Origin: a virus
Lineage: Duplodnaviria > Heunggongvirae > Uroviricota > Caudoviricetes
IMG/VR virus record: IMGVR_UViG_3300002756_000060
Span: 1-32,694 of that record
Length of the DNA stretch: 32,694 nucleotides
Reading direction: 5' to 3' (one strand)
The notes under the pieces are model-generated. The model worked only from the letters and a program-made list of their open reading frames with translations, was not told the origin of the DNA and searched no databases. Shown in pieces: positions 6,841 through 22,122 of the stretch. The position numbers and the translations under genes were made by a program. Numbering within the stretch: position 1 is the stretch's first letter; every line of letters starts with the position of its first letter.

Positions 6841-7136
6841 AAGACTCAGGCTTGTCGATTTCTTCCACTCTGATTTGAGCTGACATGACAGCCGCGTTAT
6901 ATACTTCGCCCGTTCCTAACGACTCATTCTGCTTTTCAGAACGTGGCGGGAAGTAGGTCCAGATCGGATCGAAACGCCAACTTGGAAACCCGAGTTTCCT
7001 TGAACCAAACCTTCGCAGCGCATTCCTTGAAGGTCCCCTTGGGCCGAGAGTGCACCCTCCCATTGGTTCCTCCCTGGCCCCGAACGTATACGGGGGGGCG
7101 CAGCGCGGCAGTTTTCCAGCGTCTGGCCTTTTCACC

Positions 7137-7325
7137 GGGGAATCCAGGCGGAATCCACCTGCCGAGTCATCCTGGAAAAAGCGACTCATTATCAAGGACT
7201 TGCCGAATCACGACCTGGCCAGGGTGGATTCTTTTACCGAATCCAGGGAATCCAGTTCGCGGAAGCCACAGCGCCGGAAGCCAGCCAGCGGAAGCCACCT
7301 GATGGGAAGCCATTGAATCCAGGTG
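7137..7325. repeat. Array of at least 10 short GGAA(T/G)CCA motifs in both orientations
   Basis: ggggaatccagg, cggaatccacc, gggtggattc (inverted), ccgaatccaggg, gggaatccag, cggaagccaca, ccggaagccagcc, gcggaagccacc, gggaagccattg, tgaatccaggtg. Confidence 0.6.
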
Positions 7326-7335
7326 CATTTTTCGT

Positions 7336-7419
7336 TTGACAAAGCTGCCCCCCTTGACTCATACCTTGATAATCGAAGAATGGCGCCCGGAGGAAACTCT
7401 CGCGGGCGTTTTTGTTTTT
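7336..7419 (+). promoter_or_regulatory. Promoter-like TTGACA/TTGACT/GATAAT elements followed by a GC stem (CGCCCG 7384-7389 / CGGGCG 7403-7408) and T-run tttttgttttt; candidate leader attenuator or terminator
   Basis: TTGACA at 7336-7341, TTGACT at 7354-7359, GATAAT at 7368-7373; hairpin plus U-tract; the same arrangement is conserved at 22422-22510. Confidence 0.4.
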
Positions 7420-7505
7420 CCAACATCGCGGACCCTGATGCTGTCGCCGACCGGTGCGGTCGCGCTCTCGCGTCTGTCCGCGTCTCACCACAGCAGAGAG
7501 ACCCC

Positions 7506-8768: not shown

Positions 8769-10132
8769 GCATGCATTTGCGTCCCAGCCAGATCGAGTTC
8801 TGGCCGCTGGACCGCCTCAAGCCCTATGCCCGCAACGCCAAGACCCATGACGCCGATCAGGTGGCGCGGATCGCCGCCAGCATGGCCGAGTTCGGCTGGA
8901 CCGTGCCCTGCCTGGTTGGCGACGATGGCGACCTGATCGCGGGCCATGGTCGCGTTCTTGCCGCCGCGCAGCTGGGCCTGGCGGAGGCACCCGTCATCGT
9001 GCTGGGCCATCTGACCGAGGCGCAGCGCCGGGCCTATCGCATCGCCGACAACAAGCTGACCGAGTTGGGCGGCTGGGACGAGGGCCTGCTGCTGGAGGAA
9101 CTGCGGGGGCTTATGGCCGCCGAGTTCGACCTCGGGCTGATCGGCATCCCCGAGGACGAGCTGGATGCCCTGCTGCGCGACGCCGATGACGACAGTGTGC
9201 CCATCGACGACGACACAGCCGATACCATCCCGGAGCCCCCGGCCGAGCCGATCACCCGGCCCGGCGATATCTGGGCGCTGGGCGCGCACCGGCTGATCTG
9301 CGGCGATGCCACCGACGCGGATGTCGTGGCCAGGCTTATGGAGGGCGCGCAGTCGTCGCTGATGTTCACCTCGCCGCCCTACGCCCAGCAGCGCGACTAT
9401 GGCGCGGCCAGGGAGACGGTGGGCGACTGGGACGCGCTGATGCAGGGCGTCTTCGCGGCGGCACCGGTCACCGACGCGGCCCAACTGCTGGTCAATCTCG
9501 GCCTCGTGCATCGCGACGGTGAGTGGCTCCCCTATTGGGAGCGCTGGGTCGAGTGGATGCGCAGCTCTGGCTGGCGGCGCTTCGGCTGGTATGTCTGGGA
9601 TCAGGGGCCGGGCCTGCCCGGCGACTGGAATGGCCGCCTCGCGCCCTCGCACGAGTTCATCTTCCACTTCAACCGCCAACCCCGGAAGCCCAACAAGACG
9701 GTGCCGTCCAAGCACGCGGGCGAAACCTTGGGCGGCGGTGGGCTGCGCGGGGTCAACGGCACCGTCCACGCCAAGCGAGGGGCCGGCAACGCGATCCAGA
9801 GCCATCGCATCCCGGACTCGGTGTTTCGTATCATGCGCCACAAGGGCGGGCTGGGTGCTGCCGGATCGCATCCGGCCGTGTTCCCGGTGGCGCTGGTCGA
9901 GGCCGTGCTGACCGCGTTCAGCGATCCAGGCGACCTGATCTACGAGCCGTTCTGTGGCTCCGGCACGCAGATCGTTGCCGCCGAACGCGCTGGGCGGCGC
10001 TGCTTCGCGATGGAGCTGGATCCGGTCTATTGCGACGTCGCCATGCGGCGATGGGAACTGGCGACGGGGCGGACGGCGCAGTTGGAAAATCGCAACGAGA
10101 CCACCATTGGCAAGGAGACAAAACAGCAATGA
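8765..10132 (+). CDS. ParB-like nuclease domain fused to DNA methyltransferase (beta-class, motif IV SPPY; N4-cytosine type predicted)
   Basis: ParB-type N-terminus (KPYARNAKTHDADQVARIAASMAEFGW...); motif IV LMFTSPPYAQQRDYG; motif I YEPFCGSGTQIVAAE; ATGA overlap with the upstream gene at 8765-8768. Confidence 0.85.
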   Translation: MSMHLRPSQIEFWPLDRLKPYARNAKTHDADQVARIAASMAEFGWTVPCLVGDDGDLIAGHGRVLAAAQLGLAEAPVIVLGHLTEAQRRAYRIADNKLTELGGWDEGLLLEELRGLMAAEFDLGLIGIPEDELDALLRDADDDSVPIDDDTADTIPEPPAEPITRPGDIWALGAHRLICGDATDADVVARLMEGAQSSLMFTSPPYAQQRDYGAARETVGDWDALMQGVFAAAPVTDAAQLLVNLGLVHRDGEWLPYWERWVEWMRSSGWRRFGWYVWDQGPGLPGDWNGRLAPSHEFIFHFNRQPRKPNKTVPSKHAGETLGGGGLRGVNGTVHAKRGAGNAIQSHRIPDSVFRIMRHKGGLGAAGSHPAVFPVALVEAVLTAFSDPGDLIYEPFCGSGTQIVAAERAGRRCFAMELDPVYCDVAMRRWELATGRTAQLENRNETTIGKETKQQ

Positions 10133-10638
10133 TCATCGACACCCCGATCTGGCGAAACGCCGACCTCATTCGGATCATTCCGATCACACGCGCGGACCTG
10201 AACCAGGCCATATCCCGAAACGACTTTCAGCCTGAAAACACACCCAAGCCCGGAAAGGCGCGCTGGTACAGCTGGAGAGACGTGGTGTCGGTTGCTGCCG
10301 CACAGGACTTGCGCAAACTTGGCTTTGGTCCGTCCATCGCATTTAGGCTGGTGCAAAACCACCTGTCACCGTTTCTGCGGGGTAGCATAGACGCCCCGGA
10401 CGATTGCGCAGGAGTGCTTTGGCTTATCCGTCCAAGTGACGACCATCTCAACATTGAGACCCCGTGTGAGTTCCTGCGCCACACCGAATACGAGGCACTC
10501 CTTGTCACGCCAGACGAGAGCGCCTGCATCATCGTGAATATCGGTCGCATTGCAGCACGCGTTCGCGATGACCTGCAGGCGACCGAGACCGCCAAGGTCA
10601 TCCGTGAGGAATTTCAGATCACGGGACCGGTGATGTGA
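10129..10638 (+). CDS. hypothetical protein (169 aa)
   Basis: ATG 10129 overlaps the upstream stop (ATGA); AAGGAGA Shine-Dalgarno at 10112-10118; conserved paralog at 25216-25725. Confidence 0.6.
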   Translation: MIIDTPIWRNADLIRIIPITRADLNQAISRNDFQPENTPKPGKARWYSWRDVVSVAAAQDLRKLGFGPSIAFRLVQNHLSPFLRGSIDAPDDCAGVLWLIRPSDDHLNIETPCEFLRHTEYEALLVTPDESACIIVNIGRIAARVRDDLQATETAKVIREEFQITGPVM

Positions 10639-10844
10639 CCCAATCGCGCGGCATGTCGCTGATCGAGGCCATCACCAATGTCGCGGTGGGCTATGCGCTG
10701 GCCGTCGCCGCGCAGATCGCGGTTTTCCCGTGGTTCGGCCTGCATGCGAGCATTGGCGAGAACCTCACCATCGGCGCCCTGTTCACCGGCATCTCGCTGC
10801 TGCGCAGCTACGCGCTGCGCAGGCTGTTCGAACGCTGGTGGTAA
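10635..10844 (+). CDS. small hydrophobic (probable membrane) protein, 69 aa
   Basis: GTG start overlapping the upstream stop (GTGA); two hydrophobic stretches (VAVGYALAVAAQIAVFPWFG, LTIGALFTGISLL); conserved paralog at 25722-25937. Confidence 0.5.
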   Translation: MTQSRGMSLIEAITNVAVGYALAVAAQIAVFPWFGLHASIGENLTIGALFTGISLLRSYALRRLFERWW

Positions 10845-10853
10845 CGCGCGGGA

Positions 10854-11309
10854 TCAAGCCGTGTCGAGCTTGTACACGGTGCCACGCCCGTCAACTTTCT
10901 CGGCAGTGACGGGCAGGCCCAGCTTCTTCTTGAGCCCGCCCGAGATCAGGCCACGTGCACTATGCGGCTGCCACGAGGTCGCCTCGACAATCTCGGCGAT
11001 GGATGCGCCCTCGGGCCGCTGAATGAGCGCGATGATCTGCGCCTGCTTCGTGCCCGAGCGGATGGCGACGGGTTTTGCGGTGTCCGCAGCTTCGGGCGTC
11101 GGTGCGACATCGGGCTTGGGCTTTCCCTTCCGCGCGCTGGCGACAGCGCTGACCACCACCGGCTCGATCCCGATGGCCTCCAGCCCGGCCTCGGTGGCGA
11201 TCAGCGTGGTGCCATGACCGTCACCGGTCTCGCGCCAGAGCGGCTCGCCGCGGCGGCTGTCGGCATCGACCTCCTCGATCCAGCCATTGGTGATCATGCG
11301 AGTGAACAC
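10854..11309 (-). CDS. DUF3489-like protein, probably a 5'-truncated copy
   Basis: Aligns with the C-terminal ~150 aa of the 193-aa paralog at 26938-27519 (WRETGDGHGTTLIATEAGL...SIAEIVEATSW...GRGTVYKL); start abuts a divergent gene at 11312 with no promoter space. Confidence 0.5.
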   Translation of the reverse strand: MFTRMITNGWIEEVDADSRRGEPLWRETGDGHGTTLIATEAGLEAIGIEPVVVSAVASARKGKPKPDVAPTPEAADTAKPVAIRSGTKQAQIIALIQRPEGASIAEIVEATSWQPHSARGLISGGLKKKLGLPVTAEKVDGRGTVYKLDTA

Positions 11310-11311
11310 CG

Positions 11312-12058
11312 ATGAGCCTGCATCCCGGTACGGATCGCTACAACCCGGCTGGGAACAGCGACTTCACCCGCAAGGCGGAGGCGCTGGCGCTGGGCATCCC
11401 CAACTGGTCGACACCGAAGGCGACAGACGGCGCGAAGGGTGGGCCGGGCCAGAGCTATGGCTCGGGCGGGACGCCACCCCTGCCCGCGCAGGCGGCACAA
11501 TGGCAGACGCCGGTGGCCGACGACCAGATGGATCGGCTGCGTGGCAAGATCAACAGCCGGGGCGAGCCGAAGCTATCGGCACAGGCGCTGCAATGGCCGA
11601 CCCCGGCGGCGCAGAACTGGAAGGGGAGCAGCCCGGCCAGCGTGACGCGGGCGGATGGCAAGAGCCGGATGGATATCCTGCATTACCGGGCGGAGCAGGG
11701 CTTCACCCACCCGGCCCCGGCGATCATGCGGCATGGGCGGCAGTGCTCGCGACACGCCCCGATCTCACGCCCGCTGTGGGCTTCGATGATTGCCTCGCAT
11801 GGGCGCGGCGCATGTCGGCGGCTCCTGAAGGGCCGCTCACGGCGGCGGCTGAACCCGCTCTTCGTCGGATGGTTGATGGGCTGGCCCATCGGTCACGCGC
11901 TCTGCGCCTGCTCGGCAACGGAGTTCATCCTCTGGCAGCAGCGCATGCGTGGCGCGCTCTCGCAGCTGCCCATGGCCTCGGGCCCGTGGATCTGGCGGCC
12001 ATCGGACGAGGCCCAGCGCCCCGCGCAGATGACGCTGTTTGAGGTGTGGTCTGAATGA
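11312..12058 (+). CDS. hypothetical protein with three W-x-TP motifs
   Basis: 248-aa ORF; NWSTPKATDGAKGG, QWQTPVADDQ, QWPTPAAQNWKGSS; stop overlaps the next ATG (ATGA at 12055-12058). Confidence 0.5.
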   Translation: MSLHPGTDRYNPAGNSDFTRKAEALALGIPNWSTPKATDGAKGGPGQSYGSGGTPPLPAQAAQWQTPVADDQMDRLRGKINSRGEPKLSAQALQWPTPAAQNWKGSSPASVTRADGKSRMDILHYRAEQGFTHPAPAIMRHGRQCSRHAPISRPLWASMIASHGRGACRRLLKGRSRRRLNPLFVGWLMGWPIGHALCACSATEFILWQQRMRGALSQLPMASGPWIWRPSDEAQRPAQMTLFEVWSE

Positions 12059-12717
12059 CGATACAAGGAAAGATCGGGCGGCCAGGCGGCCAAAAAACCA
12101 AACGCGCGCTGGGCGTGCAGGCGGCGCTGGAATGGGCCTTTGGCGTGGAAAAGGCACAGCTGGAACTGCCCCTACCGAAGGGCGTGGCCGAGGAAGGCTT
12201 CGGCTTTGGGCTCGAATACGTGCTGCTGCAACGCGCCATACTTGGCTGCAAGATCGACGGCGGCCAACACAAGTTGGGTGGCTATGTGCACGTGGACGCC
12301 GAGGTGATCGCCGCCACCGTCGCGGGCATGCCCGACACCTTGGGTGGTAAGCGCATGGCGATCCGGGTCGCGGAACTGGCACGCGCCGGGCTGACCCCGG
12401 ACTGGATGCCCAGGGCCGTGCCGCGCTGCGTGCCCGTCGATATCAAGCGCAACCGGCATGGTGATCGCGCGGTCAGCGTCGTGGTCGGCACCGCCCGCGC
12501 GCTGATCAGCGGCAAGTGGCGCATCGTCGAGGTCCGCGCCTGCCCCGTCACCTTCACCCCAACCCCACACCAGATCGACGCCGCCCGCCAAGCCTATGAC
12601 GACTGGTGGCAGGCACTGGACTGGGTACGGGATGGGCTTATCGCGGGCGACATGCTGCGGGAGATTGATGTGACAGGGGCGATGCCGAGCGTGCGGCCGT
12701 GGGCTGCAAAGCCTTGA
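12055..12717 (+). CDS. hypothetical protein (220 aa)
   Basis: Translationally coupled to the upstream gene; no recognisable motif. Confidence 0.5.
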   Translation: MTIQGKIGRPGGQKTKRALGVQAALEWAFGVEKAQLELPLPKGVAEEGFGFGLEYVLLQRAILGCKIDGGQHKLGGYVHVDAEVIAATVAGMPDTLGGKRMAIRVAELARAGLTPDWMPRAVPRCVPVDIKRNRHGDRAVSVVVGTARALISGKWRIVEVRACPVTFTPTPHQIDAARQAYDDWWQALDWVRDGLIAGDMLREIDVTGAMPSVRPWAAKP

Positions 12718-12778: not shown

Positions 12779-15652
12779 ATGTTCACCGCTTACCATGGCA
12801 AATATACCGCATATGATCTTACGAAGCTGGCGCCGCCCGGCTCGGACGATCAGTTGTCAATGTCGTTGTTCGATGCATCGGTTGATCTCAATCCTCATCA
12901 GATTGAGGCCGCGATGTTCGCGCTTCAATCGCCGCTGGCTGAAGGCGCGATACTTGCGGATGAGGTCGGCCTCGGCAAAACCATCGAGGCAGGCATTGTC
13001 CTTTGCCAGAAATGGGCTGAGCGAAAACGGAAACTAATCATCATCTGCCCAGCGGCCATTCGACAGCAGTGGGCTGCAGAACTGACGAACAAGTTCAATC
13101 TTCCCGCAGTCGTCATTGACGCTCGGACCTATCGACAGATGAAGATGGAAGGCATTCCATTCCCTTTGTCACAGAAGCGGATCGTCGTGCTATCCTATCA
13201 TTATGCTGCAAAGCTTCAGGATGAGCTTCGGCAAGTCGATTGGGATCTGGTTGTTATCGACGAAGCGCACAAGCTTCGTAACTCGTACCGACCCAGCAAT
13301 CGCATCGGGCAAGCTCTTCAACGAGCAGTCGAAGGCCGCAAAAAGCTCCTGCTGACGGCTACTCCCCTCCAAAACAGCTTGATGGAGATATTCGGGCTTA
13401 CGAACTTCATTGATCCAAACATTTTCGGCGATGCCAACAGCTTCCGGTCGAAGTATGTGAATGCCGGTGGCGATCTGCCCGAGCTTCGCGCAAGGCTCGC
13501 GGATTTCTGCAAGCGCACGCTTCGGAAGCAGGTTCTCGAGTATGTCAAATATACTCAGCGCCGTGCCATCACGCAGCCATTCTCGCCGGCGGAGAACGAG
13601 CAGGCGCTGTATGACGGCATTACGCGCTTCCTACAACGAGAGGACACCTATGCAATACCCTCTCAACAGCGCCATCTAACCGTTCTTATCCTGCGGAAGC
13701 TTCTCGCTTCGTCATCACAGGCCATCGCAGGGACGCTTGAGACCCTACGCGCCCGCTTGGTAGCCCTGCAGAAAGGGGAACCGGTAAAGGATGATCTGGC
13801 GGAGGTGATTTCATTCGAGAACGAGCTCGAAGAAGAAATTCTCGACGAATGGGATGATGACGATGCGCAAGACCCCACAGGGGCCGAGCAAATCGACTTC
13901 GCCAAGCTTCGCCTGGAAATCGACGATATTTCAGGTCTGATCCAGCTTGCACATTCGATCCAGATCGATACTAAGTCCAAAGCGCTGCTACAGGCTCTCG
14001 AGATAGGCTTTTCGGAGCAGGAGCGGATGGGCGCACAGAGAAAAGCCCTGATCTTCACAGAGTCGCGCCGCACCCAAGACTATCTCCGCGATTTCCTCGC
14101 GCGCTACGGTTACGCCAATCAAATTGTGACCTTCAGTGGCACTAATTCCGACCGCAAGGCACAGGAAATTTACGAGCGCTGGCTTACCGATCCGAAGAGC
14201 GCCGAGCAGATTACAGGATCGCGCGCCATCGATGTTCGTGCTGCACTGATAGAAGAATTCCGCGACAATGCCTCGATCATGATCGCAACCGAGGCCGCCG
14301 CCGAGGGTGTCAACCTGCAATTCTGCTCGCAGGTCATCAACTACGACCTTCCGTGGAACCCGCAGAGGATCGAACAGCGCATCGGACGCTGCCATCGCTA
14401 TGGGCAGACGCATGATGTGATCGTCGTGAACTTCCTGAACGAACGCAACGATGCAGATAAACGGGTTCACGCGCTTCTAACCGAGAAGTTCAATCTGTTC
14501 GATGGTGTATTTGGGGCTTCAGACGAGGTCTTGGGAACGATTGAGTCCGGCGTCGACTTCGAAAAGCGCATTCTGGCGATTTACCAGGACTGCCGCACTC
14601 CGGAGGCCATCGCCGCAGCTTTTGATGAACTTCAGACCCAGCTCGAGGAACAAATTCGGAGCCGAATGGAGGATACAAGGCGGGCCCTGCTGGAGAACTT
14701 CGACGAGGATGTCCACGCCCGCCTGAAGCTGCGCCTCGCTGACGCCCGCGAACAGTTGGACCGTGTCGGGCGCCGGTTTTGGGATCTGACCACTGCTATC
14801 CTCGCCGACAAGGCCAAATTCGATGAACCAAATCTGGCCTTCGACCTTCTGGCCCCGCCGACCCGCGACCTGCGACCGGGCCGCTATCACCTGATCTCGC
14901 GGAACTCGGCCGCAGACCCGGCCAAGAACGAACACGGCTATTTCCTCTACCGGCTGTCGCACCCTCTTGGCGAGCATGTCATTGAATCGGCCAAGGCCGC
15001 TGACACGCCAGTGGCCGAATTGCGGTTCGATGTGACCAATCACCCCACACGCGTGGCCATCGTCGAGGCGCTGAAAGGGCGGCGCGGCTGGCTGACGCTG
15101 CGCAAACTTGCGGTGACGACCTTCGAGACCGAGGAATACCTGCTATTCTCGGGCATCGACGACAATGGTCGCTCCATCGACCACGAAGCCTGCGCCAAGC
15201 TGTTCTCGGTCGGTGCTGGCGTTCACCCCATCGACATGCCCGCCCCTGCCATCGCCGACCTCCTTCAGGCTGAGGCCGAGCAGCATGCCAAAGCCACCTT
15301 GAACCGGTCGCTGGATGCCAACAACAAGCACTTTGCCTCGGCCCGTGAAAGGCTGGAGCGCTGGGCTGAGGACAAGGTCTACGCGGCAGAGAAGGCGCTG
15401 AAGGACACCAAGGAACAGATCAAGGGGGTGCGTCGCGAGGCGCGGGCAGCTACCACACTCGAAGAAGAAGCCGCCATCCAAGCCAAACTGCAGGAACTGG
15501 AACGTCGCCAGCGCAAGCAGCGGCAGGAAATCTTCAACCAGGAAGACGAAGTGGCCGACAAGCGGGACGAGTTGATCGCCAACCTTCAAAAGCGGCTCAG
15601 CCGTGGCCACTCGGTTGAATCGCTGTTTACGGTCCGCTGGGCCGTCGTGTAG
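12779..15652 (+). CDS. SNF2-family (SF2) helicase/ATPase
   Basis: Motif I LADEVGLGKTIEAG; motif II LVVIDEAHKLRN; motif III LLLTATPLQNSLMEIFGL; C-terminal helicase motifs ALIFTESRRT, IMIATEAAAEGVNLQ, DLPWNPQRIEQRIGRCHRYGQ; AT-richer codon usage than neighbours. Confidence 0.9.
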   Translation: MFTAYHGKYTAYDLTKLAPPGSDDQLSMSLFDASVDLNPHQIEAAMFALQSPLAEGAILADEVGLGKTIEAGIVLCQKWAERKRKLIIICPAAIRQQWAAELTNKFNLPAVVIDARTYRQMKMEGIPFPLSQKRIVVLSYHYAAKLQDELRQVDWDLVVIDEAHKLRNSYRPSNRIGQALQRAVEGRKKLLLTATPLQNSLMEIFGLTNFIDPNIFGDANSFRSKYVNAGGDLPELRARLADFCKRTLRKQVLEYVKYTQRRAITQPFSPAENEQALYDGITRFLQREDTYAIPSQQRHLTVLILRKLLASSSQAIAGTLETLRARLVALQKGEPVKDDLAEVISFENELEEEILDEWDDDDAQDPTGAEQIDFAKLRLEIDDISGLIQLAHSIQIDTKSKALLQALEIGFSEQERMGAQRKALIFTESRRTQDYLRDFLARYGYANQIVTFSGTNSDRKAQEIYERWLTDPKSAEQITGSRAIDVRAALIEEFRDNASIMIATEAAAEGVNLQFCSQVINYDLPWNPQRIEQRIGRCHRYGQTHDVIVVNFLNERNDADKRVHALLTEKFNLFDGVFGASDEVLGTIESGVDFEKRILAIYQDCRTPEAIAAAFDELQTQLEEQIRSRMEDTRRALLENFDEDVHARLKLRLADAREQLDRVGRRFWDLTTAILADKAKFDEPNLAFDLLAPPTRDLRPGRYHLISRNSAADPAKNEHGYFLYRLSHPLGEHVIESAKAADTPVAELRFDVTNHPTRVAIVEALKGRRGWLTLRKLAVTTFETEEYLLFSGIDDNGRSIDHEACAKLFSVGAGVHPIDMPAPAIADLLQAEAEQHAKATLNRSLDANNKHFASARERLERWAEDKVYAAEKALKDTKEQIKGVRREARAATTLEEEAAIQAKLQELERRQRKQRQEIFNQEDEVADKRDELIANLQKRLSRGHSVESLFTVRWAVV

Positions 15653-15685
15653 ACCAGCCGAGTAACATCAAGGAAAACAAGAACA

Positions 15686-18600
15686 ATGAGCAATTTTGAC
15701 GCCCTCGTTGCCAAGCTGCGCGAAATCTTCCAGATCGACCGGCCTGACCTCGATTTTGGCGTCTACCGTATCCTCAACGCCCGCGCGGGGGAAATCGAGG
15801 ATTACCTGTCCAAGCGTCTGAAGGCGCGGGTGGCCGAAGCACTGGCTGCCGGTGCTGCGGCCAATACCGAAACGCTGAAGGCCGCGATTGAGAAAGCGCG
15901 CGAAGCTGCTGAGGCCGCAGGGTACAATTCAGACGAAGCTCCGAGAGTTCTGAGCCTCCAGAAGGAACTTGCAGCCGCCAGCGGGGCCACGTCGGAGCAT
16001 GAAAATCAGGTCTTCTCGCACCTGTTGACCTTCTTCTCGCGCTACTACGACAAGGGCGATTTCATCAGCCAGCGCCGGTACAAGGGTGATACCTATGCCA
16101 TCCCCTATTCCGGGGAAGAGGTCGTGCTGCACTGGGCGAACCGCGATCAGTATTACATCAAAAGCGGAGAATCCTTCTCGAACTTCAGCTTCAAGCTGGA
16201 TGACGGTCGACTTGTGCATTTCCGCCTTGTCGCTGCCGATACGGCCAAAGACAACCGCAAGGATAACGACAAGGAGCGCCGCTTCGTTCTGGCCACCGAG
16301 CGCACGGTCACGCGCCTTGACGAGGAGGGCGAGGGTTTTGAAGAAACCATCCGTCCGATCGAGGAAGAGGATGGCGCGCTGGTCATCCGGTTCGACTTTG
16401 CAGCACAGCCCAAAGGGACCAAGCAAGAAAAACTGGTTGAGGCGGCGGTGGAAACCATTCTGGACAGCGAGACTTTCAAATCGAGATGGCTGGAACTGAC
16501 CAACCGCGCGCCGACGGAAAAGAAACCGCAGCGCACCTTGCTGGAAAAGCACCTGACGACCTACACGCAAAAGAACACCGCCGATTACTTCATTCACAAG
16601 GATCTGGATGGTTTTCTGCGGCGCGAACTGGATTTCTACATCAAGAACGAGGTGATGAACCTGGACGATGTGCAGGAGGCCGGGGCCTTTGCCGCCATCG
16701 AAAGAAACCTACGGATGATCCAATGCCTGCGGGCCATCGCTCTGGACCTGATTACCTTTCTGGCCAGCATCGAGAATCTCCAGAAAAAGCTATGGCTGAA
16801 AAAGAAATTCGTGGTGGCGGCGCAGTATTGCGTGACGCTGGACCGGGTGCCGGAGGCGCTTTACCCGGCTATCGCGGCGAACCCCGCGCAATGGGCGCAG
16901 TGGCATGATCTGGGGATGCGGGCATCCGCGGCGCCGGGGACGGTGGAGGATCTGAAAGCCGCGCCCTTCCTGATGGTGGACACCGCGCTCTTTGATGCGG
17001 GTTTCCGGGCTGACCTGTTGAAGGCGATCCCCGATCTGGATGCTAGCCTCGACGGGCTGCTGGTTCATGGGGACAATTTTCAGGCGCTGAACCTTTTGCA
17101 GGATCGATACCGGGAAAAGGTCAAATCAATCTATATCGACCCGCCTTACAACACTGACGCAGGACCGATCAGTTACAAGAACGGCTACCGGAGTTCGTCG
17201 TGGGTTGCCATGATGCACGACCGCGTGAAACTCGGGCGTGAGCTATTGCCTCTCGACGGGTTGCTCACCGCCACGATCGATGACTATCAGTACCGTGAAT
17301 TGCACTTCGCCATTGAAGAGGTTTTTGGCGCTCAAAACCTCGCAGGTACCGTTGTAATCCGAATGAACCCGTCTGGCCGCCCGCTCCCACAAGGCTTCGC
17401 ACAGTCCCACGAATACGCAATCGTCGCGAAGCGGTCAGACTTAGCTCAGATCGAGAACTTACCGAGAAGCGAGAAGCAGAACGCCAGATATAAGCACCGC
17501 GATGACGACGGTCAGATGTACATGTGGGAACTGTTCAGAAAGCGCGGATCGAATTCCGAAAGAACTGACCGGCCTTCGCTGTATTATCCGATCTATCTCC
17601 GGGGTGAGGACTTTCGGGTTCCCCGAATGACTTATGATCCTGATCGCAAGGATTGGGATATTCATGAAGAACCGGATACCGACGAAAGCGTCATCTACCC
17701 TATTGACGACAACGGAACCTTGCGCACGTGGCGTGGCTCACCGGATGATTTGATCGATAATCCAAGCAACTATCGTGTGAAGATCGAGGACAGCAAAGTC
17801 ACGGTCTACTACAAGTTTCGCCCCAACTCTGAGGGTGTGCTTCCGCTCACCAACTGGATCGATGCCAAATACTCCGCAACGGAGCATGGAACGGGATATC
17901 TCAAGAACTTCTTTTCGGAATACAACGTTTTCTCCTATCCGAAGTCGATCTACGCGGTTGAAGACTGCATCAGGGTTGGTGGCGCAACGGCCAATGCAAC
18001 CGTCCTCGACTATTTTGCAGGATCGGGCACGACTGGACACGCAGTCATAAACTTGAACCGGTCCGACCAAGGGTCTCGAAAGTACATCTTGGCCGAGCAA
18101 GGCGCTTACTTCGAAACTGTCATTAAGCCACGCTTAAAGAAGGCAGTGTTTTCTGCTGATTGGTCAGAGGGTAAACCCACCGCCCCCGAAACCGGCATCA
18201 GCCATGCCTTCAAGGTACTCAAGATCGAGGGCTATGAGGACACGCTGAACAATCTTGATCTGAAGCGTTCGGAGGCGCAGGCCAGTCTTCTGGAACGGTT
18301 CAGCGCCGACAAGCGCGACGACTATTTGATGCGCTACATGCTGGATGTCGAGGGACGCGGCTCGCTCCTGTCCATCTCGGATTTCCGCAAGCCCTTTGAC
18401 TACTCGCTCAAGGTCGCCGTCGACAGCGCCGGGGCCTGGGAGGAGCGCAAGGTCGATCTGGTCGAGACCTTCAACTACCTGATCGGCCTGACCGTCCGCC
18501 ATATCGACATCCAGCTTCGCCAAGGCTTCGCCACGGTCGAGGGCTGGTTGCCAACGGGTGAGCGGACCCTGATCCTGTGGCGCGACTGCGATAAAATCGG

Positions 18601-18805
18601 CTATGAGGAATTGACGCGCCTGTGCGACAAACTGGCGATTAACCCGGCCGACAGCGAATACGACGTGGTCTACATCAACGGCGACCACAATATCCCCTCG
18701 GTGGTGGAAACGACCGAGGAAGAGGGCAGCGTTATCAAGAAGCTGATGCTGCGCCAGATCGAACCCGCCTTCCTCGATGCGATGTTCAACGTGGATGACG
18801 TCTGA
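15686..18805 (+). CDS. Type III Mod-like beta-class DNA methyltransferase with ~480-aa N-terminal extension
   Basis: LLVHGDNFQALNLLQDRYREKVKSIYIDPPYNT (motif IV) precedes VLDYFAGSGTTGHAV (motif I); AAGGAAA Shine-Dalgarno at 15670-15676; 1039 aa. Confidence 0.85.
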   Translation: MSNFDALVAKLREIFQIDRPDLDFGVYRILNARAGEIEDYLSKRLKARVAEALAAGAAANTETLKAAIEKAREAAEAAGYNSDEAPRVLSLQKELAAASGATSEHENQVFSHLLTFFSRYYDKGDFISQRRYKGDTYAIPYSGEEVVLHWANRDQYYIKSGESFSNFSFKLDDGRLVHFRLVAADTAKDNRKDNDKERRFVLATERTVTRLDEEGEGFEETIRPIEEEDGALVIRFDFAAQPKGTKQEKLVEAAVETILDSETFKSRWLELTNRAPTEKKPQRTLLEKHLTTYTQKNTADYFIHKDLDGFLRRELDFYIKNEVMNLDDVQEAGAFAAIERNLRMIQCLRAIALDLITFLASIENLQKKLWLKKKFVVAAQYCVTLDRVPEALYPAIAANPAQWAQWHDLGMRASAAPGTVEDLKAAPFLMVDTALFDAGFRADLLKAIPDLDASLDGLLVHGDNFQALNLLQDRYREKVKSIYIDPPYNTDAGPISYKNGYRSSSWVAMMHDRVKLGRELLPLDGLLTATIDDYQYRELHFAIEEVFGAQNLAGTVVIRMNPSGRPLPQGFAQSHEYAIVAKRSDLAQIENLPRSEKQNARYKHRDDDGQMYMWELFRKRGSNSERTDRPSLYYPIYLRGEDFRVPRMTYDPDRKDWDIHEEPDTDESVIYPIDDNGTLRTWRGSPDDLIDNPSNYRVKIEDSKVTVYYKFRPNSEGVLPLTNWIDAKYSATEHGTGYLKNFFSEYNVFSYPKSIYAVEDCIRVGGATANATVLDYFAGSGTTGHAVINLNRSDQGSRKYILAEQGAYFETVIKPRLKKAVFSADWSEGKPTAPETGISHAFKVLKIEGYEDTLNNLDLKRSEAQASLLERFSADKRDDYLMRYMLDVEGRGSLLSISDFRKPFDYSLKVAVDSAGAWEERKVDLVETFNYLIGLTVRHIDIQLRQGFATVEGWLPTGERTLILWRDCDKIGYEELTRLCDKLAINPADSEYDVVYINGDHNIPSVVETTEEEGSVIKKLMLRQIEPAFLDAMFNVDDV

Positions 18806-21800
18806 TGGCGCGTGCGGCGAAGAAAAAGCGCACCTTCCATCACGAGTTGGTGCTGAACCGCTGGATGCTGAGCCATTTTTACGGTGACGGCCTGATGACG
18901 CTCAAATCGCGGTTGGGCGATGACCGGTTTGAGGGTATCGACGACGATGGCCAGACCAAGTTCTTTCATGAGCTGACGCGCAACCTGTTCAACATGGACC
19001 GCGTCACCGAGGCCGAGCTGCGCCGCTATGACCTGAACATCGTCGCATATTGGCAGAAGATCACCCATCGCCGCAACGCCGCCACGGGCGAATTGCTGAC
19101 GATGAAATATTTTCAGTATCTGTCGCTGCTGTTCACCGAGATCTACCTCGACTGGTATTTCAACCGGCGACAGGACTTGCTGGACGGGCTGAATGCCCAA
19201 ATGGCCGCGTATCGGAAAGAGGACGGGGCCGAACCGTTTCGCGATTATAGCGCCGACGACCTCAACAAGCTCGCCTTCTGGAACGCGACAGGCAGCGGCA
19301 AGACCCTGCTGCTGCATGTGAACATCCTGCAGTACCTGCATTACTTCCAGGCGGGCAACGGCAACCTATTTCCCGACCGGATCATCCTGCTGACCCCAAA
19401 CGAGGGACTGTCACGCCAGCATCTGGAGGAATTCCGCGAGTCCGGCATCAACGCCCATGTCTTCGACAAGAACCAGACAGGTTCGCTGTTCAAGGGCTGG
19501 GTGGATGTGATCGAAGTCACGAAGCTGGCCGACGAGATGGGCGACAAGACCGTCGCCACCGGCGCGTTCGAGGGCAACAACCTGGTGCTGGTCGACGAAG
19601 GCCACCGCGGCACCGGCAGTGCGGGCGGGGTCTGGATGGCGAGGCGCGCGGCGCTGGTGAAGGGCGGCTTTGCTTTTGAATACAGCGCGACCTTCAGCCA
19701 ATCAGTCGCCAAGGGCGCCACGGTTGCAAAGGCCGAGGAAGACATCCTGAAGGCCAAGGCGAAGCGCCTGTTCGACAAGACTTTGAAACAGCTGGACGAC
19801 ACGGAACGCGCACAACTGCAGCTGACCAACGAAGATCGCGCCCGCGCCCGCATCGACGGCATTCGCGAGGCCTACGCCAAGGCGGTGCTGATCGACTACA
19901 GCTACAAGTATTTCTACGCCGACGGTTACGGGAAGGAATCCCTGATCCTGAACCTGGACGACAAGGGCTATGACAACCATGGCGATCTGTATTTCACAGC
20001 GTGCTTGCTCAGCTTCTACCAGCAGCTCTGGCTCTGGGACACGCACCGCGACAAGATCAGGGACTTCAATATCGAGAAGCCGTTGTGGGTCTTCGTGGGC
20101 AACACTGTGGCCGGAGAGGACAGCGATATCCTCGAAGTCATCAAGTTCCTCGCCTGGTTTCTGAACCATCCCAGCGAAGCCACGACATGGATCGCAGACC
20201 TCGTTGCCGACAAGGCGCGGCTGCTGGACCCGAAGGGTAACGACGTATTCGCGGGGCGCTTCTCCCCCTTGATGCAGCGTGATGCCGCGACGATCTATGA
20301 CGATATCCTGAAGCGGCTGTTTAACGCCGATGCGAGGCAGCGGCTGAAGTTGGTGAACCTGAAGAACAGCAAGGGTGAGCTGGCCCTGCGGGTCGGATCG
20401 TTCGATCCCTTTGGCCTGATCAACATCGGCGACGATTCCGGCTTCTTCAAGAACGCCGAGGACAGCAGCGACTTCGATACCGAAGCGGACGATTTCGGGA
20501 CCGGGCTGTTTGGCACGATCAACCAGAAAGATAGCAAGCTGAATGTCCTGATCGGGTCGCGGAAATTCACCGAAGGCTGGTCAAGCTGGCGGGTGTCGAC
20601 CATGGGTCTACTCAACATGGGGCAAGGCGAAGGCTCACAGATCATTCAGCTTTTCGGTCGCGGCGTCCGCCTGAAAGGACGCGGCATGTCGCTGAAACGG
20701 TCACTCCCCGCCGAGCGGCCGAAGGGCACGCACATGGAACGCCTTGAAACGCTGAACATCTTCGGCGTCCGGGCGAACTACATGGCCACCTTCAAGGACT
20801 ACCTGAAGGAGGAAGGCATCACGCCGAGCGACGAAATCATTCAGCTCGACTTCCCGACCAGGACGAACCTGCCGTCCGGGACTAGGCTCAAGACGCTCAA
20901 GCTGAAAGATGGCTATAAGGATAATCAGATCAAGGGCTTCAAGCGCGTCCACTATCCGACGTTATACGAGGTCCCGGCCGAGTTCGCGGGCAAGATCAAG
21001 CCTCCACACGTCCTGCTCGACCTTTATCCGCGAGTCGAAGCGATCACGACCACGGCGAACGCAACGGCGGGCGCACCGGACAAGCGAAATCGTGGCAAAC
21101 TGAGCAAGGCGGCAATCGCCTGCTTTGATTGGGATGCGGTATTCACCGCCGTTCAGGAATACAAGCTCCTGAAAAGCTGGAGCAACCTGAAGGTCGACCG
21201 AGAGCGCCTATACCAGTTCTGTCTTGGCGACAACAGCTGGTACACCCTTTTGATCCCCCAAGCGGAACTGGAAGTGTCGGACTTTTCAGATGTGCTGCGT
21301 CAGCAGGACATCATGCTTCAGCTGCTTACCGACTATACCGACCGTTTCTATCAAGGGCTGAAGGCGGCTTATGAGGGCAAATTCTACGATGTCGCGCCGG
21401 TTACGGAGGACTCCGGCTCGATCATCAAACTGTACCAGTTTGAGATCGAAAACACCGATGTCGGTCTTGAGTACAAGGCAAAGCTTGAGGTCCTTTCCGC
21501 CCTCGTCGCGTCTGGAAAAATCGGCGAGGCCAGCAATTGGAACGCACCCCATATGGTGGCGATCAGCTTCGGACAGCACCTGTATTATCCCCTGCTCTCT
21601 CCGATCAAAGATGCGGTCGTCCCACTAAAGATGCGACCACTGGCAATTGGAGAACCAAGCGAGGTGCAGTTCGTTGAGGACGTCATGGCCTACTACGACT
21701 CGCCTTCAGGGAAAGAGAGGCTGAAAGGCTTCAGCCTTTACCTGCTGCGCAATGCCGACAATCGCGCCAAGGGGCTCGGTTTCGCTCTGGCAGGCAACTT

Positions 21801-22122
21801 CTATCCTGACTTCCTGCTCTGGCTGGTGGACGACAAAACTGGCAAGCAGTGGCTATCATTCATCGATCCTAAGGGCATTCGAAACCTGAACATTTCGGAC
21901 CCGAAGTTTGGCTTGTATAGGGAAATCAAGCAGATCGAGAACCAGCTGGGTGACGGCATGATCAGCCTAAACGCCTTCATCCTGTCCGTGACGACCTTCA
22001 GCGACCTGCTAAATGTCACAGGCTCTACCACGAAATCGGAGCTCGAGGACCGAAATGTCCTATTCATGGGCGACGGGGGGCCGACATATCTTGATAAGCT
22101 GCTGGCCAGAGCCCTCACCTGA
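18805..22122 (+). CDS. Res-like ATPase/helicase with candidate C-terminal PD-(D/E)xK nuclease
   Basis: Walker A FWNATGSGKTLLLHV; Walker B-type LVLVDEGHRG; C-terminal YPDFLLWL...FIDPKG; start overlaps the Mod-like stop (TGATG), so co-operonic; 1105 aa. Confidence 0.75.
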   Translation: MARAAKKKRTFHHELVLNRWMLSHFYGDGLMTLKSRLGDDRFEGIDDDGQTKFFHELTRNLFNMDRVTEAELRRYDLNIVAYWQKITHRRNAATGELLTMKYFQYLSLLFTEIYLDWYFNRRQDLLDGLNAQMAAYRKEDGAEPFRDYSADDLNKLAFWNATGSGKTLLLHVNILQYLHYFQAGNGNLFPDRIILLTPNEGLSRQHLEEFRESGINAHVFDKNQTGSLFKGWVDVIEVTKLADEMGDKTVATGAFEGNNLVLVDEGHRGTGSAGGVWMARRAALVKGGFAFEYSATFSQSVAKGATVAKAEEDILKAKAKRLFDKTLKQLDDTERAQLQLTNEDRARARIDGIREAYAKAVLIDYSYKYFYADGYGKESLILNLDDKGYDNHGDLYFTACLLSFYQQLWLWDTHRDKIRDFNIEKPLWVFVGNTVAGEDSDILEVIKFLAWFLNHPSEATTWIADLVADKARLLDPKGNDVFAGRFSPLMQRDAATIYDDILKRLFNADARQRLKLVNLKNSKGELALRVGSFDPFGLINIGDDSGFFKNAEDSSDFDTEADDFGTGLFGTINQKDSKLNVLIGSRKFTEGWSSWRVSTMGLLNMGQGEGSQIIQLFGRGVRLKGRGMSLKRSLPAERPKGTHMERLETLNIFGVRANYMATFKDYLKEEGITPSDEIIQLDFPTRTNLPSGTRLKTLKLKDGYKDNQIKGFKRVHYPTLYEVPAEFAGKIKPPHVLLDLYPRVEAITTTANATAGAPDKRNRGKLSKAAIACFDWDAVFTAVQEYKLLKSWSNLKVDRERLYQFCLGDNSWYTLLIPQAELEVSDFSDVLRQQDIMLQLLTDYTDRFYQGLKAAYEGKFYDVAPVTEDSGSIIKLYQFEIENTDVGLEYKAKLEVLSALVASGKIGEASNWNAPHMVAISFGQHLYYPLLSPIKDAVVPLKMRPLAIGEPSEVQFVEDVMAYYDSPSGKERLKGFSLYLLRNADNRAKGLGFALAGNFYPDFLLWLVDDKTGKQWLSFIDPKGIRNLNISDPKFGLYREIKQIENQLGDGMISLNAFILSVTTFSDLLNVTGSTTKSELEDRNVLFMGDGGPTYLDKLLARALT

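What the first reader, a model, noticed from the sequence alone, without database searches (positions are those of the whole stretch)
12779..22122. Phage-embedded operon: SNF2 helicase + Type III Mod-like methyltransferase + Res-like ATPase/nuclease
Three large genes form a tight operon (33-nt gap, then TGATG overlap) with AT-richer codon usage than the surrounding phage genes, suggesting a horizontally acquired cargo cassette. The methyltransferase has motif IV (DPPY) before motif I (FAGSGTT), the beta-class order of Type III Mod. That argues against DISARM DrmMI or BREX PglX, which I recall as gamma-class. The third protein has Walker A/DEGH plus a C-terminal PD..DxK-like motif, like Type III Res. 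An SNF2 helicase fused into such an operon, inside phage DNA and flanked by direct repeats, looks like a Type III-like restriction or defence variant that I cannot assign to a named system.
Basis: partly seen in the sequence, partly recalled or inferred. Interest (0 to 1): 0.8.

Follow-up and report, generated by a model that had tools for sequence, protein, structure and literature searches.

The report
Phage-borne Type III-like restriction system with SNF2 partner
A temperate-phage-like element carries an intact restriction-modification operon (DNA methylase plus helicase-nuclease) that is regularly accompanied, here and in dozens of unrelated bacteria, by a third gene for an SNF2 DNA motor, a combination that is common in genomes but that I could not find named or studied.

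Summary
Three long + strand ORFs (12779-15652, 15686-18805, 18805-22122) form a tight, AT-richer operon (GC 0.56-0.57 against 0.64-0.70 in the flanks), and every cited motif is present.

Profile searches split the trio. Mod and Res each match a full-length PADLOC 'Type III' model. By sequence and fold, Mod is closest to solved Type III Mod subunits, including EcoP15I Mod. The SNF2 protein matches DISARM DrmD only over its ATPase core, falls below NCBIfam's cut-off, and has its own 300-aa C-terminal domain.

The trio is a conserved unit. SNF2 is adjacent in 53 of 62 informative genome loci across many phyla and persists when the gene order changes. It co-varies with Mod and Res, while the Mod target-recognition region is shuffled. 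Distant members of the same SNF2 family also sit next to shorter, canonical-size Mod/Res pairs.

No DISARM, BREX or Hma partner genes are present.

The 'direct repeats' are diverged paralogous ParB-methyltransferase gene blocks. A contig with a 100% identical cassette lacks the upstream copy, so they are not insertion scars.

Verdict: an uncharacterised three-gene variant of Type III restriction-modification, carried as phage cargo. The role of the SNF2 protein is inferred, not shown.

The parts
12779..15652 (+). SNF2-family ATPase gene (957 aa), DrmD-like
   Evidence: Pfam SNF2-rel_dom 4.5e-38 and Helicase_C 6.9e-20. PADLOC DrmD PDLC02619 2e-203 over aa 29-660 only. NCBIfam DISARM_DrmD_b scores 683 bits, below its cut-off of 950. 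Best solved relative is RapA.
12863..14758 (+). SNF2 ATPase core (aa 29-660) with invariant motifs I GLGKT, II DEAH, III TATP and VI QRIGRCHRYGQ
   Evidence: Invariant columns in the alignment of 34 orthologues; motif positions.
14759..15649 (+). SNF2 C-terminal domain (aa 661-957), specific to this family, with no Pfam model
   Evidence: Not covered by the DrmD models. No Pfam hit. 1628 representatives carry it, nearly always at the C-end of SNF2 proteins of 920-1000 aa.
15686..18805 (+). Type III Mod-like N6-adenine methyltransferase gene (1039 aa)
   Evidence: PADLOC MTase_III PDLC03646, 1128 bits, full length. Pfam N6_N4_Mtase 5e-19. PDB sequence hits Mbo45V Mod, H. pylori Mod and EcoP15I Mod. 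Foldseek top hit EcoP15I Mod 4zcf_A at 3.9e-19.
15686..17035 (+). Mod N-terminal extension (aa 1-450), conserved, unknown fold family
   Evidence: Strongly conserved in 41 homologues. No Pfam hit. Pairwise identities correlate with those of Res, r = 0.95.
17138..17149 (+). Methyltransferase motif IV, DPPY (aa 485-488)
   Evidence: D485, P486 and P487 are invariant and Y488 nearly so.
17243..17935 (+). Variable target-recognition region of Mod (about aa 520-750)
   Evidence: Mean pairwise identity is 22%, against 60-63% for the rest of Mod, and it is uncorrelated with the other parts (r 0.13-0.17). Closest relatives with 93% identical Res do not align at 17218-18095.
18014..18034 (+). Methyltransferase motif I, FAGSGTT (aa 777-783)
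   Evidence: conserved columns D775, F777, G779, S780, G781, T782, T783.
18113..18802 (+). Mod C-terminal extension (aa 810-1039), conserved, no Pfam model
   Evidence: Correlates with Res, r = 0.92.
18805..22122 (+). Res-like SF2 ATPase-nuclease gene (1105 aa)
19291..19305 (+). Res Walker A, GSGKT (aa 163-167)
   Evidence: invariant or near-invariant in 47 homologues.
19594..19605 (+). Res motif II, DEGH (aa 264-267)
   Evidence: D264, E265 and H267 invariant.
20647..20670 (+). Res helicase motif VI, QLFGRGVR (aa 615-622)
   Evidence: All eight residues invariant.
21652..21990 (+). Predicted PD-(D/E)xK nuclease domain of Res (about aa 950-1062): E953, P1001-D1002, D1021-P-K1023, K1034
   Evidence: These residues are invariant or at least 90% conserved. 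DSSP of the model gives helix 951-972, strands 976-982, 1003-1009 and 1015-1021, helix 1033-1048 and strand 1053-1061. D1002 sits at the start of the second strand and DxK at the end of the third.
11312..12717 (+). Two phage-backbone genes (phrog_27243, phrog_9306) that precede the cassette in related Rhodobacteraceae elements; context, not part of the system
   Evidence: GC 0.67-0.70, like the backbone. Absent next to the trio outside that clade.
7064..11297 (+). Upstream copy of the diverged repeat: ParB-MTase A1 and B1, and an N-terminally truncated DUF3489 gene (context)
   Evidence: Absent from the 100% identical sibling contig L088.
22152..27396 (+). Downstream copy of the repeat: ParB-MTase A2 and B2, an extra NYN-domain gene, and full-length DUF3489 (context)
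   Evidence: The same cassette-then-ParB-MTase order occurs in L041 and L088.

Best explanation
This is an intact, horizontally acquired, three-gene restriction-modification module carried as cargo by a temperate siphophage-like element of a Rhodobacteraceae host.

Shown:
- Mod is a beta-class, Type III-type DNA methyltransferase. Its central recognition region is swapped between relatives.
- Res is an SF2 ATPase with every helicase motif intact and a conserved C-terminal E/PD/DxK motif.
- The SNF2 gene has intact ATPase motifs. It is a conserved, co-varying neighbour of such Mod/Res pairs in many phyla.

Inferred:
- Mod, probably as a dimer, reads a short asymmetric sequence, methylates adenine N6 and so marks the DNA of the lysogen and of the phage.
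- Mod holds Res through its conserved N- and C-terminal extensions.
- On unmethylated incoming DNA, Res uses ATP to move or slide along the DNA and cuts with its PD-(D/E)xK domain, as EcoP15I does.
- The SNF2 protein is an auxiliary double-strand DNA translocase, recruited through its family-specific C-terminal domain. It makes restriction more effective, for instance by clearing bound proteins, helping two complexes meet, or countering anti-restriction, much as DrmD accompanies DrmMI in class 1 DISARM.
- The benefit to the phage is exclusion of competing phages and plasmids from its lysogen.
For: Operon and motifs.

Mod is Type III-type:
- Full-length PADLOC MTase_III model, 1128 bits.
- PDB sequence hits to Mbo45V, H. 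pylori and EcoP15I Mod.
- Foldseek top hits EcoP15I Mod at 3.9e-19, then 6k0w and 7dsu.

Res:
- Full-length PADLOC REase_III model, 1538 bits.
- Invariant motifs I, II, III, V and VI, plus E953, PD1001-2, D1021, K1023 and K1034.
- The model has the alpha-beta-beta-beta-alpha-beta unit at 951-1061.

Specificity shuffling typical of R-M systems: the recognition region has 22% mean identity and is uncorrelated with the rest of the protein. It fails to align even between loci whose Res proteins are 93% identical.

SNF2 linkage:
- Adjacent in 53 of 62 informative genome loci, 47 upstream and 6 downstream in Neisseria, Moraxella and Cardiobacterium.
- Present in about 14 of 22 informative viral loci.
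- Identity correlations are 0.75 for SNF2-Res and 0.78-0.81 for SNF2-Mod.
- The ATPase motifs are invariant.
- Distant members of the same SNF2 family lie next to short Mod (534-555 aa) and ResIII (805-892 aa) pairs or long-type pairs.

Defence context:
- Variable defence-type genes are inserted between the three genes in other loci.
- The Blastomonas plasmid copy sits among toxin-antitoxin, PIN and IS genes.

Phage context.

DrmD precedent: in class 1 DISARM, deleting drmD together with drmMI nearly abolishes protection against one phage (10.1101/2021.12.28.474362).
Against: - No experiment bears on any step.
- Nine of 62 informative loci have Mod-Res without an SNF2 gene within 10 kb. SNF2 may therefore be dispensable, or encoded elsewhere in those genomes.
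- Neither single-sequence nor profile searches detect similarity between this Res and EcoP15I Res or any other solved protein. It hits no other PADLOC REase_III model.
- Its fold matches to EcoP15I Res are no better than those to other SF2 enzymes.
- The nuclease domain found no match in PDB by profile. I could not search it alone by fold.
- The functions of the Mod extensions and of the SNF2 C-terminal domain are unknown.
- The SNF2-Res correlation (0.75) is weaker than the Mod-Res correlation (0.92-0.95). One locus pairs an 88% identical Res with a 60% identical SNF2 (L004), which shows some exchange of partners.
Confidence: 0.65

Rival explanations
1. Mod and Res alone are the complete restriction-modification enzyme. 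The SNF2 protein is a separate add-on that works in parallel, for example as a back-up layer or a counter to anti-restriction proteins, and does not take part in the core reaction.
For: Nine informative loci have Mod-Res but no SNF2. The same SNF2 family partners with at least two unrelated Res families and with an HNH/two-methylase cluster, as a modular accessory would. One family member stands alone, without R-M genes (L124). The SNF2-Res correlation is weaker than the Mod-Res correlation.
Against: Adjacency is 85%, with tight spacing of 21-76 nt in most loci. The gene is retained when the gene order changes. The family-specific C-terminal domain is conserved. These points argue for a dedicated partnership rather than loose co-location.
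Confidence: 0.25
2. The locus is a reduced or variant class 1 DISARM system.
For: The SNF2 protein's best profile matches are DrmD models: PADLOC 2e-203 and NCBIfam DISARM_DrmD_b 5e-205. Like class 1 DISARM, the locus combines an SNF2 protein, an adenine methylase, a second helicase and a nuclease.
Against: The DrmD match covers the ATPase core only and scores 683 bits, below the curated cut-off of 950. Mod hits only Type III and Type II methylase models, not DrmMI. No DrmA, DrmB (DUF1998) or DrmC (PLD) match was found among the three proteins or the neighbouring proteins that were scanned.
Confidence: 0.03
3. The SNF2 gene is a chance neighbour, and the 'operon' is merely a defence island in which unrelated genes pile up.
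For: The window is rich in defence genes (HsdR, CHAT, NYN, four methylases). R-M operons of this family accept unrelated inserted genes.
Against: The co-occurrence of 53 in 62 spans Alpha-, Beta- and Gammaproteobacteria, Chlorobi, Nitrospira, Spirochaetes and others. Partner sequences co-vary. The reverse association, starting from distant SNF2 homologues, also holds.
Confidence: 0.05
4. The module serves the phage offensively or for its own DNA metabolism. Mod would act as an anti-restriction methylase, like the neighbouring ParB-methyltransferases, and Res and SNF2 would act in host-DNA degradation or replication, not in defence of the lysogen.
For: The element already carries four orphan-type ParB-methyltransferase genes. 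The cassette lies between phage early and packaging genes.
Against: Most family members sit in bacterial chromosomes and plasmids with no phage genes nearby, often among toxin-antitoxin and other defence genes. The composition marks the cassette as foreign cargo, not phage backbone.
Confidence: 0.07

Closest known systems
Type III restriction-modification systems (EcoP1I of phage P1, EcoP15I; Mod2Res1-2 complexes)
   Same: The mod gene directly precedes and overlaps res. Mod is a beta-class N6_N4 methyltransferase with an internal variable recognition region, and its best sequence and fold matches are solved Type III Mod subunits, including EcoP15I Mod. Res combines an SF2 ATPase with a C-terminal PD-(D/E)xK-type motif. 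A public defence library files both under 'Type III' with full-length models. Carriage by a phage has the classical precedent of P1 (my own knowledge).
   Different: A third conserved gene (SNF2) is present in 85% of loci. Mod is about 400 aa longer at the N-end and about 230 aa longer at the C-end than EcoP15I Mod (644 aa chain). Res shows no detectable sequence similarity to EcoP15I Res or to other REase_III models. No simple-sequence repeats of the phase-variation kind are present.
Class 1 DISARM (DrmD, DrmMI, DrmA, DrmB, DrmC)
   Same: The SNF2 ATPase core is a close relative of DrmD (2e-203). Both systems pair an SNF2 motor with an adenine methylase, a second helicase and a nuclease.
   Different: The C-terminal third of the SNF2 protein differs, and the protein fails the curated DrmD cut-off. 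The methylase is beta-class Type III-type, not DrmMI (pfam13659, as stated in 10.1101/2021.12.28.474362). No DrmA, DrmB or DrmC is present; a single Res protein supplies both helicase and nuclease.
BREX type 3 and the BREX-related / Hma systems (SNF2 helicase BrxHII or HmaA, an N6-methylase, and a BrxC- or DUF499-type ATPase)
   Same: An SNF2-family helicase paired with an adenine methylase in a modification-based defence (10.1101/2025.10.09.681413). The SNF2 protein here gives secondary PADLOC hits to BrxHI|BrxHII (2.1e-71) and HmaA (4.6e-53).
   Different: No BrxC/DUF499 ATPase, PglZ or BrxA was detected. Mod gives no hit to BREX or Hma methylase models. The SNF2 protein starts about 28 residues before its ATPase core, which leaves no room for the N-terminal Tudor domain described for BrxHII.
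Type I and Type ISP restriction enzymes (HsdR, LlaBIII)
   Different: The nuclease is C-terminal, not N-terminal. There is no HsdS-type specificity subunit, and the methylase is beta-class with its own recognition region. The separate, genuine HsdR in this window (829-3960) is a different protein.

Membership tests
Type III restriction-modification | Adjacent mod and res genes, with mod first, expressed as one unit | tested here: met
   Mod 15686-18805 and Res 18805-22122 overlap in TGATG. The same order holds in all the related genome loci that hold both genes.
Type III restriction-modification | Mod is a beta-class (motif IV before motif I) N6-adenine methyltransferase homologous to known Mod subunits, with the recognition domain between the motifs | tested here: met
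   DPPY at 485 and FAGSGTT at 777. PDB hits to Mbo45V, H. pylori and EcoP15I Mod. Foldseek EcoP15I Mod 3.9e-19. Thirteen PADLOC MTase_III models hit. The variable region 520-750 lies between the motifs.
Type III restriction-modification | Res has SF2 helicase motifs followed by a C-terminal PD-(D/E)xK endonuclease | tested here: met
   Helicase motifs are invariant. E953, PD1001-2, D1021-x-K1023 are conserved and lie on a predicted alpha-beta-beta-beta-alpha-beta unit. Caveat: no database fold or profile match was obtained for the nuclease domain on its own.
Type III restriction-modification | Res is homologous to characterised Res subunits (EcoP1I/EcoP15I family) | tested here: inconclusive
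Type III restriction-modification | Two-component system (Mod and Res only) | tested here: not met
   A third gene, SNF2, is adjacent in 53 of 62 informative loci and co-varies with the other two.
Type III restriction-modification | ATP-dependent cleavage that needs two inversely oriented unmethylated sites, cutting about 25-27 bp from a site, with hemimethylation of an asymmetric site | not testable with these tools
   Needs biochemistry and a methylome.
Class 1 DISARM | Core genes drmA (helicase), drmB (DUF1998) and drmC (PLD) | tested here: not met
   No such hits among the trio or the neighbouring window proteins that were scanned. The definition is taken from 10.1101/2021.12.28.474362.
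Class 1 DISARM | DrmD SNF2 helicase passing the curated model | tested here: not met
   NCBIfam DISARM_DrmD_b scores 683 bits against a cut-off of 950, and the match covers aa 29-663 only.
Class 1 DISARM | DrmMI-type (pfam13659) methylase | tested here: not met
   Mod is PF01555 N6_N4_Mtase and has no DrmMI hit in PADLOC.
BREX type 3 / BREX-related (Hma) systems | BrxC- or DUF499-type ATPase (plus PglZ in BREX) next to the SNF2 helicase and methylase | tested here: not met
   No such proteins were found among those scanned in the window. The definition is taken from 10.1101/2025.10.09.681413.

The most novel reading that the evidence does not exclude
The SNF2-Mod-Res module is a distinct, widespread three-component class of ATP-dependent restriction system. 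In it, a DrmD-like SNF2 translocase is an obligatory subunit: it is needed either for DNA cleavage or long-range site communication, or to keep the enzyme from attacking host DNA. This SNF2 family would be a general plug-in motor for beta-class-methylase R-M systems, and DISARM's DrmD-DrmMI pair would be another instance of the same principle.
Probability: 0.35. Interest if true: 0.7.

Novelty: new variant of a known kind. Interest (0 to 1): 0.5.

Why it matters
Type III restriction enzymes are the textbook case of a helicase-like ATPase used for long-range communication on DNA, and they are described as two-subunit machines. Here a large, phylogenetically broad set of Type III-like operons, found in 79 genome loci and 35 viral contigs from a single query, regularly includes a second motor of the SNF2 class.

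If that motor takes part in restriction, it gives a simple three-gene model for what SNF2 proteins do in modification-based immunity. That question is still open for DrmD in DISARM, BrxHII in BREX and HmaA.

The module is also carried by temperate phages next to several orphan methyltransferases. It is therefore a clear example of a phage that both arms its lysogen and protects its own DNA.

Current defence-annotation tools would report only 'RM type III' plus a stray DrmD hit, and so miss the linkage.

Tried and rejected
1. DISARM, BREX and Hma membership were rejected on missing core genes and sub-threshold or absent profile hits.
2. Insertion-derived direct repeats or att sites were rejected. 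The repeats are 77-84% identical paralogous gene blocks, and a sibling contig with an identical cassette lacks the upstream copy.
3. Sequence and profile searches of Res, and of its C-terminal domain, against PDB found nothing significant.
4. hhalign of the Res C-domain against single PD-(D/E)xK sequences (HsdR N-domain, a PDDEXK_3 protein) was uninformative, as expected without deep template alignments.
5. Whole-chain fold searches of Res returned only generic SF2 cores, so the nuclease domain could not be matched separately.
6. Lax-threshold Pfam scans of the Mod N- and C-extensions, the SNF2 C-domain and the Res N, middle and C regions gave only noise.
7. I looked for Rosetta-stone fusions of the SNF2 C-domain with Mod or Res. 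The few longer proteins carry unrelated extensions, for example wHTH + HATPase_c_2 + DUF4325, and no Mod or Res parts.
8. Megablast against the phage collection found no close relative of the cassette. Thermus phage phiLo holds only a truncated Res homologue and fragmentary methylase genes.
9. The promoter/terminator scan around the operon was at or below the shuffle expectation.
10. No phase-variation-type tandem repeats were found.
11. Five literature searches found no paper describing this gene trio. That is absence of evidence within an open-access library, not proof that it is undescribed.

Full report
OBSERVATION

The window holds three long ORFs on the + strand at the stated coordinates: 12779-15652 (957 aa), 15686-18805 (1039 aa) and 18805-22122 (1105 aa). 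The first two are separated by 33 nt. The second and third overlap in TGATG.

- Mod: DPPY at residue 485, ahead of FAGSGTT at 777.
- Res: GSGKT at 163, DEGH at 264, PD at 1001-1002 and D-P-K at 1021-1023.
- SNF2: GLGKT at 64 and DEAH at 161.

The three genes are AT-richer than their surroundings. Their GC is 0.56-0.57 and their GC3 0.68-0.78. The flanking ParB-methyltransferase, DUF3489, terminase and backbone genes have GC 0.64-0.70 and GC3 0.77-0.86.

WHAT THE THREE PROTEINS ARE

SNF2. The first protein has Pfam SNF2-rel_dom and Helicase_C.
- Its best profile matches are DISARM DrmD models: PADLOC PDLC02619 at 2e-203 and NCBIfam DISARM_DrmD_b at 5e-205.
- Both matches cover only residues 29-663, and the NCBIfam score of 683 bits is below the curated cut-off of 950.
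- The last 300 residues are not covered by DrmD models or by Pfam.
- In an alignment of 34 orthologues the ATPase motifs I, II, III and VI are invariant.

Mod. The second protein matches a full-length PADLOC 'Type III methyltransferase' model (1128 bits, residues 1-1035) and twelve further MTase_III models.
- By sequence it hits the solved Mod subunits of Mbo45V, H. pylori and EcoP15I.
- An AlphaFold model (pLDDT 80) has EcoP15I Mod as its top Foldseek match at 3.9e-19.
- The N-terminal 450 residues and the C-terminal 230 residues are conserved extensions with no Pfam model.

Res. The third protein matches one full-length PADLOC 'Type III restriction enzyme' model (1538 bits) and no other PADLOC family.
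- It has Pfam ResIII at its N-terminal ATPase lobe.
- Motifs I, II, III, V and VI are invariant across 47 homologues.
- It has no detectable sequence similarity to any solved protein, including EcoP15I Res, even with a family profile.
- At the C-end, E953, P1001-D1002, D1021-P-K1023 and K1034 are invariant or nearly so.
- These residues sit on a predicted helix / three strands / helix / strand unit, with the first Asp at the start of the second strand and DxK at the end of the third. That is the canonical PD-(D/E)xK arrangement.
- I could not confirm this fold with a database match for the domain alone.

THE TRIO IS A CONSERVED UNIT

A scan of one genome per species with Res returned 79 loci, in Alpha-, Beta- and Gammaproteobacteria, Chlorobi, Nitrospira, Planctomycetes, Verrucomicrobia, Spirochaetes and others.

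- Of 62 loci with enough flanking DNA, 53 have a full-length orthologue of the SNF2 gene, C-terminal domain included, next to Mod-Res. It lies upstream in 47 loci. In 6 loci (Neisseria, Moraxella, Cardiobacterium) it lies downstream, so the linkage survives a change of gene order.
- Nine loci have Mod-Res but no SNF2 within 10 kb, and nothing comparable takes its place.
- Across 19 loci, pairwise identities correlate at 0.95 for Res against the Mod N-domain, 0.92 for Res against the Mod C-domain, 0.75 for SNF2 against Res, and 0.78-0.81 for SNF2 against the Mod domains.
- The central Mod region (residues 520-750) has only 22% mean identity and correlates with nothing. It also fails to align between loci whose Res proteins are 93% identical. 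Such shuffling of recognition domains is typical of restriction-modification systems.
- In many loci, unrelated defence-type genes are inserted between the three genes: RhuM, YhcG/DUF1016, AbiEii-like ATPases, Schlafen/AlbA, GmrSD and PDDEXK_3.
- A Blastomonas plasmid carries the module among toxin-antitoxin, PIN and IS genes.

The reverse association also holds.
- The SNF2 C-terminal domain defines a family of 1628 representative proteins. Nearly all the full-length ones are SNF2 proteins of 920-1000 aa.
- I sampled seven distant members. Two contigs were too short to show the full context, although one of these ends inside a long-type Mod gene.
- Of the five informative contexts, two lie next to short, canonical-size Mod (534-555 aa) and ResIII (805-892 aa) pairs whose Res is unrelated to the one here. 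One lies next to a long-type pair, one next to two methylases and an HNH nuclease, and one stands alone.
- This SNF2 family therefore appears to be a recurrent partner of beta-class-methylase restriction modules, not of one Res family only.

CONTEXT

- TerS and TerL lie at 29554-32104. TerL is about 60% identical to that of Rhodobacter capsulatus siphophages, whose left arm has the same ParB / small minus-strand genes / TerS / TerL layout.
- IMG/VR contig UViG_3300002490_000102 is 100% identical to window 11306-32119. Upstream of that point it carries excisionase-like, VRR-NUC-like and HTH_36 genes, which are shared with related Rhodobacteraceae loci. In that relative the cassette sits between phage early genes and the packaging module.
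- In the window itself, the sequence upstream of 11306 is different. It holds a full-length Type I HsdR, a HARE-HTH protein, a CHAT-domain protein and a second copy of the ParB-methyltransferase block.
- The 'direct repeats' are these two blocks, 7064-11297 and 22152-27396. They are 77-84% identical, and each encodes two ParB-N/methyltransferase fusions and a DUF3489 gene. The upstream DUF3489 copy is cut at the 11305/11306 junction. They are paralogous phage genes, not insertion scars.

MECHANISM

Shown: gene order, intact catalytic motifs, Type III-type Mod, an SF2 ATPase with a nuclease motif in Res, recognition-domain shuffling, and conserved, co-varying SNF2 linkage.

Inferred:
- Mod methylates adenine in an asymmetric site and binds Res through its conserved extensions.
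- Res uses ATP to communicate along unmethylated DNA, and cuts it.
- SNF2 is an auxiliary dsDNA translocase docked through its C-terminal domain.

The nearest functional precedent is class 1 DISARM. There drmD and drmMI precede drmABC, and deleting drmD together with drmMI nearly abolishes protection against one phage (10.1101/2021.12.28.474362). I put 0.65 on this account as a whole, and about 0.35 on SNF2 being obligatory.

COMPARISON WITH KNOWN SYSTEMS

- The module works like, and mostly qualifies as, a Type III system. It fails the 'two components only' criterion, and its Res cannot be shown to be homologous to characterised Res subunits beyond the shared SF2 fold.
- It is not DISARM. DrmA, DrmB and DrmC are absent, the methylase is of the wrong class, and the SNF2 protein is below the DrmD threshold.
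- It is not BREX type 3 or a BREX-related/Hma system as defined in 10.1101/2025.10.09.681413, because no BrxC/DUF499 ATPase or PglZ is present.
- Public sources name the orthologues only 'SNF2-related protein', 'site-specific DNA-methyltransferase' and 'DEAD/DEAH box helicase'.
- Five full-text searches found no paper on this trio.

VERDICT

This is a real, intact, phage-borne restriction-modification operon. It is best described as a new (unnamed, uncharacterised) three-gene variant of a known kind. Interest is moderate (0.5). The individual parts are familiar, and SNF2 motors are already known partners of modification-based defences. But the linkage is broad and cleanly defined, it is missed by current annotation schemes, and it offers a compact system for asking what such motors do.

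Noticed in passing
window 829-3960 (+), 4221-5219 (+), 5092-6840 (+): A full-length Type I restriction subunit HsdR (Pfam HSDR_N, SWI2_SNF2, T1R_D3, T1RH-like_C; PADLOC REase_I 1132 bits) is followed by a HARE-HTH protein and a CHAT-domain protein. No hsdM or hsdS gene is visible; the two small ORFs before hsdR (37-354, 401-832) have no family hit. This is a second defence cluster in the same element.
   Followed up: partly
window 11305/11306; L088 2501/2502: The window and IMG/VR contig UViG_3300002490_000102 are 100% identical from 11306 to at least 32119 and unrelated upstream. The breakpoint truncates the N-terminus of the upstream DUF3489 gene (151 aa against 193 aa). Whether this is a real recombinant between two related phages or an assembly join is open.
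   Followed up: partly
window 7323-8768, 8765-10132, 22236-23855, 23852-25219 (+): Four genes encode fusions of a ParB-like N-terminal domain with an N6_N4 DNA methyltransferase (phrog_498), arranged as two tandem pairs. A1/A2 are 82% and B1/B2 86% identical as proteins; A against B is about 60% in the ParB part. They are probably orphan methylases protecting phage DNA.
   Followed up: partly
window 25925-26934, gene 26026-26712 (+): The downstream repeat copy holds about 1 kb that the upstream copy lacks. It encodes a NYN-domain (RNase-like) protein with low GC (0.58), which looks like another small cargo insert.
   Followed up: no
L010, L017, L023, L026, L034, L035, L069, L073 (between the SNF2, Mod and Res genes): The operon tolerates inserted genes between its three genes: AbiEii-like AAA_21 ATPases, RhuM, PDDEXK_3, YhcG/DUF1016, Schlafen-AlbA with HATPase_c_4, and GmrSD. 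The operon acts as a docking site for other defence genes.
   Followed up: partly
L050, L052, L060, L062, L065, L080: In Neisseria, Moraxella catarrhalis and Cardiobacterium the gene order is Mod-Res-SNF2 instead of SNF2-Mod-Res.
   Followed up: partly
L118 3058-14494: A distant SNF2 family member is followed by a short Mod (534 aa), a ResIII protein (805 aa) and a 95-aa TnsA-like fragment. Next come an OLD-family ATPase-TOPRIM protein and a UvrD helicase, a Gabija-like pair, all downstream of an integrase.
   Followed up: no
L078 and L098, Res C-terminal domain (alignment A4, columns around 131-133): Two distant Res homologues have E-P-H in place of the D-P-K nuclease motif, so both residues are changed together.
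   Followed up: no
P0215, P0133, P0262, P0137: Rare relatives of the SNF2 protein carry extra regions. P0215 has an N-terminal wHTH + HATPase_c_2 + DUF4325 (STAS-like) module. P0133 and P0262 have N-terminal extensions of 380-530 aa with no Pfam hit. P0137 has 494 extra C-terminal residues with no Pfam hit.
   Followed up: partly
L081 (Thermus phage phiLo, MH673673, 15376-20582): A lytic Thermus phage carries a truncated Res homologue (858 aa, 38% identity) preceded by short 'restriction endonuclease' and 'DNA methylase' ORFs and a transposase. This looks like a decayed copy of a related system.
   Followed up: no
L007 (CP059262.1, labelled MAG Exiguobacterium profundum): A record labelled as a Firmicute chromosome holds the cassette and its phage flanks at 83-94% identity to this Rhodobacteraceae-type sequence. 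This suggests contamination or mis-binning of that MAG.
   Followed up: no
window 11312-12058 and 12055-12717 (+): Two overlapping genes of unknown function (phrog_27243, with weak similarity to a methyltransferase PHROG, and phrog_9306) always precede the SNF2 gene in the related Rhodobacteraceae elements (L002, L007, L009, L088). They have backbone-like GC and are absent elsewhere.
   Followed up: partly
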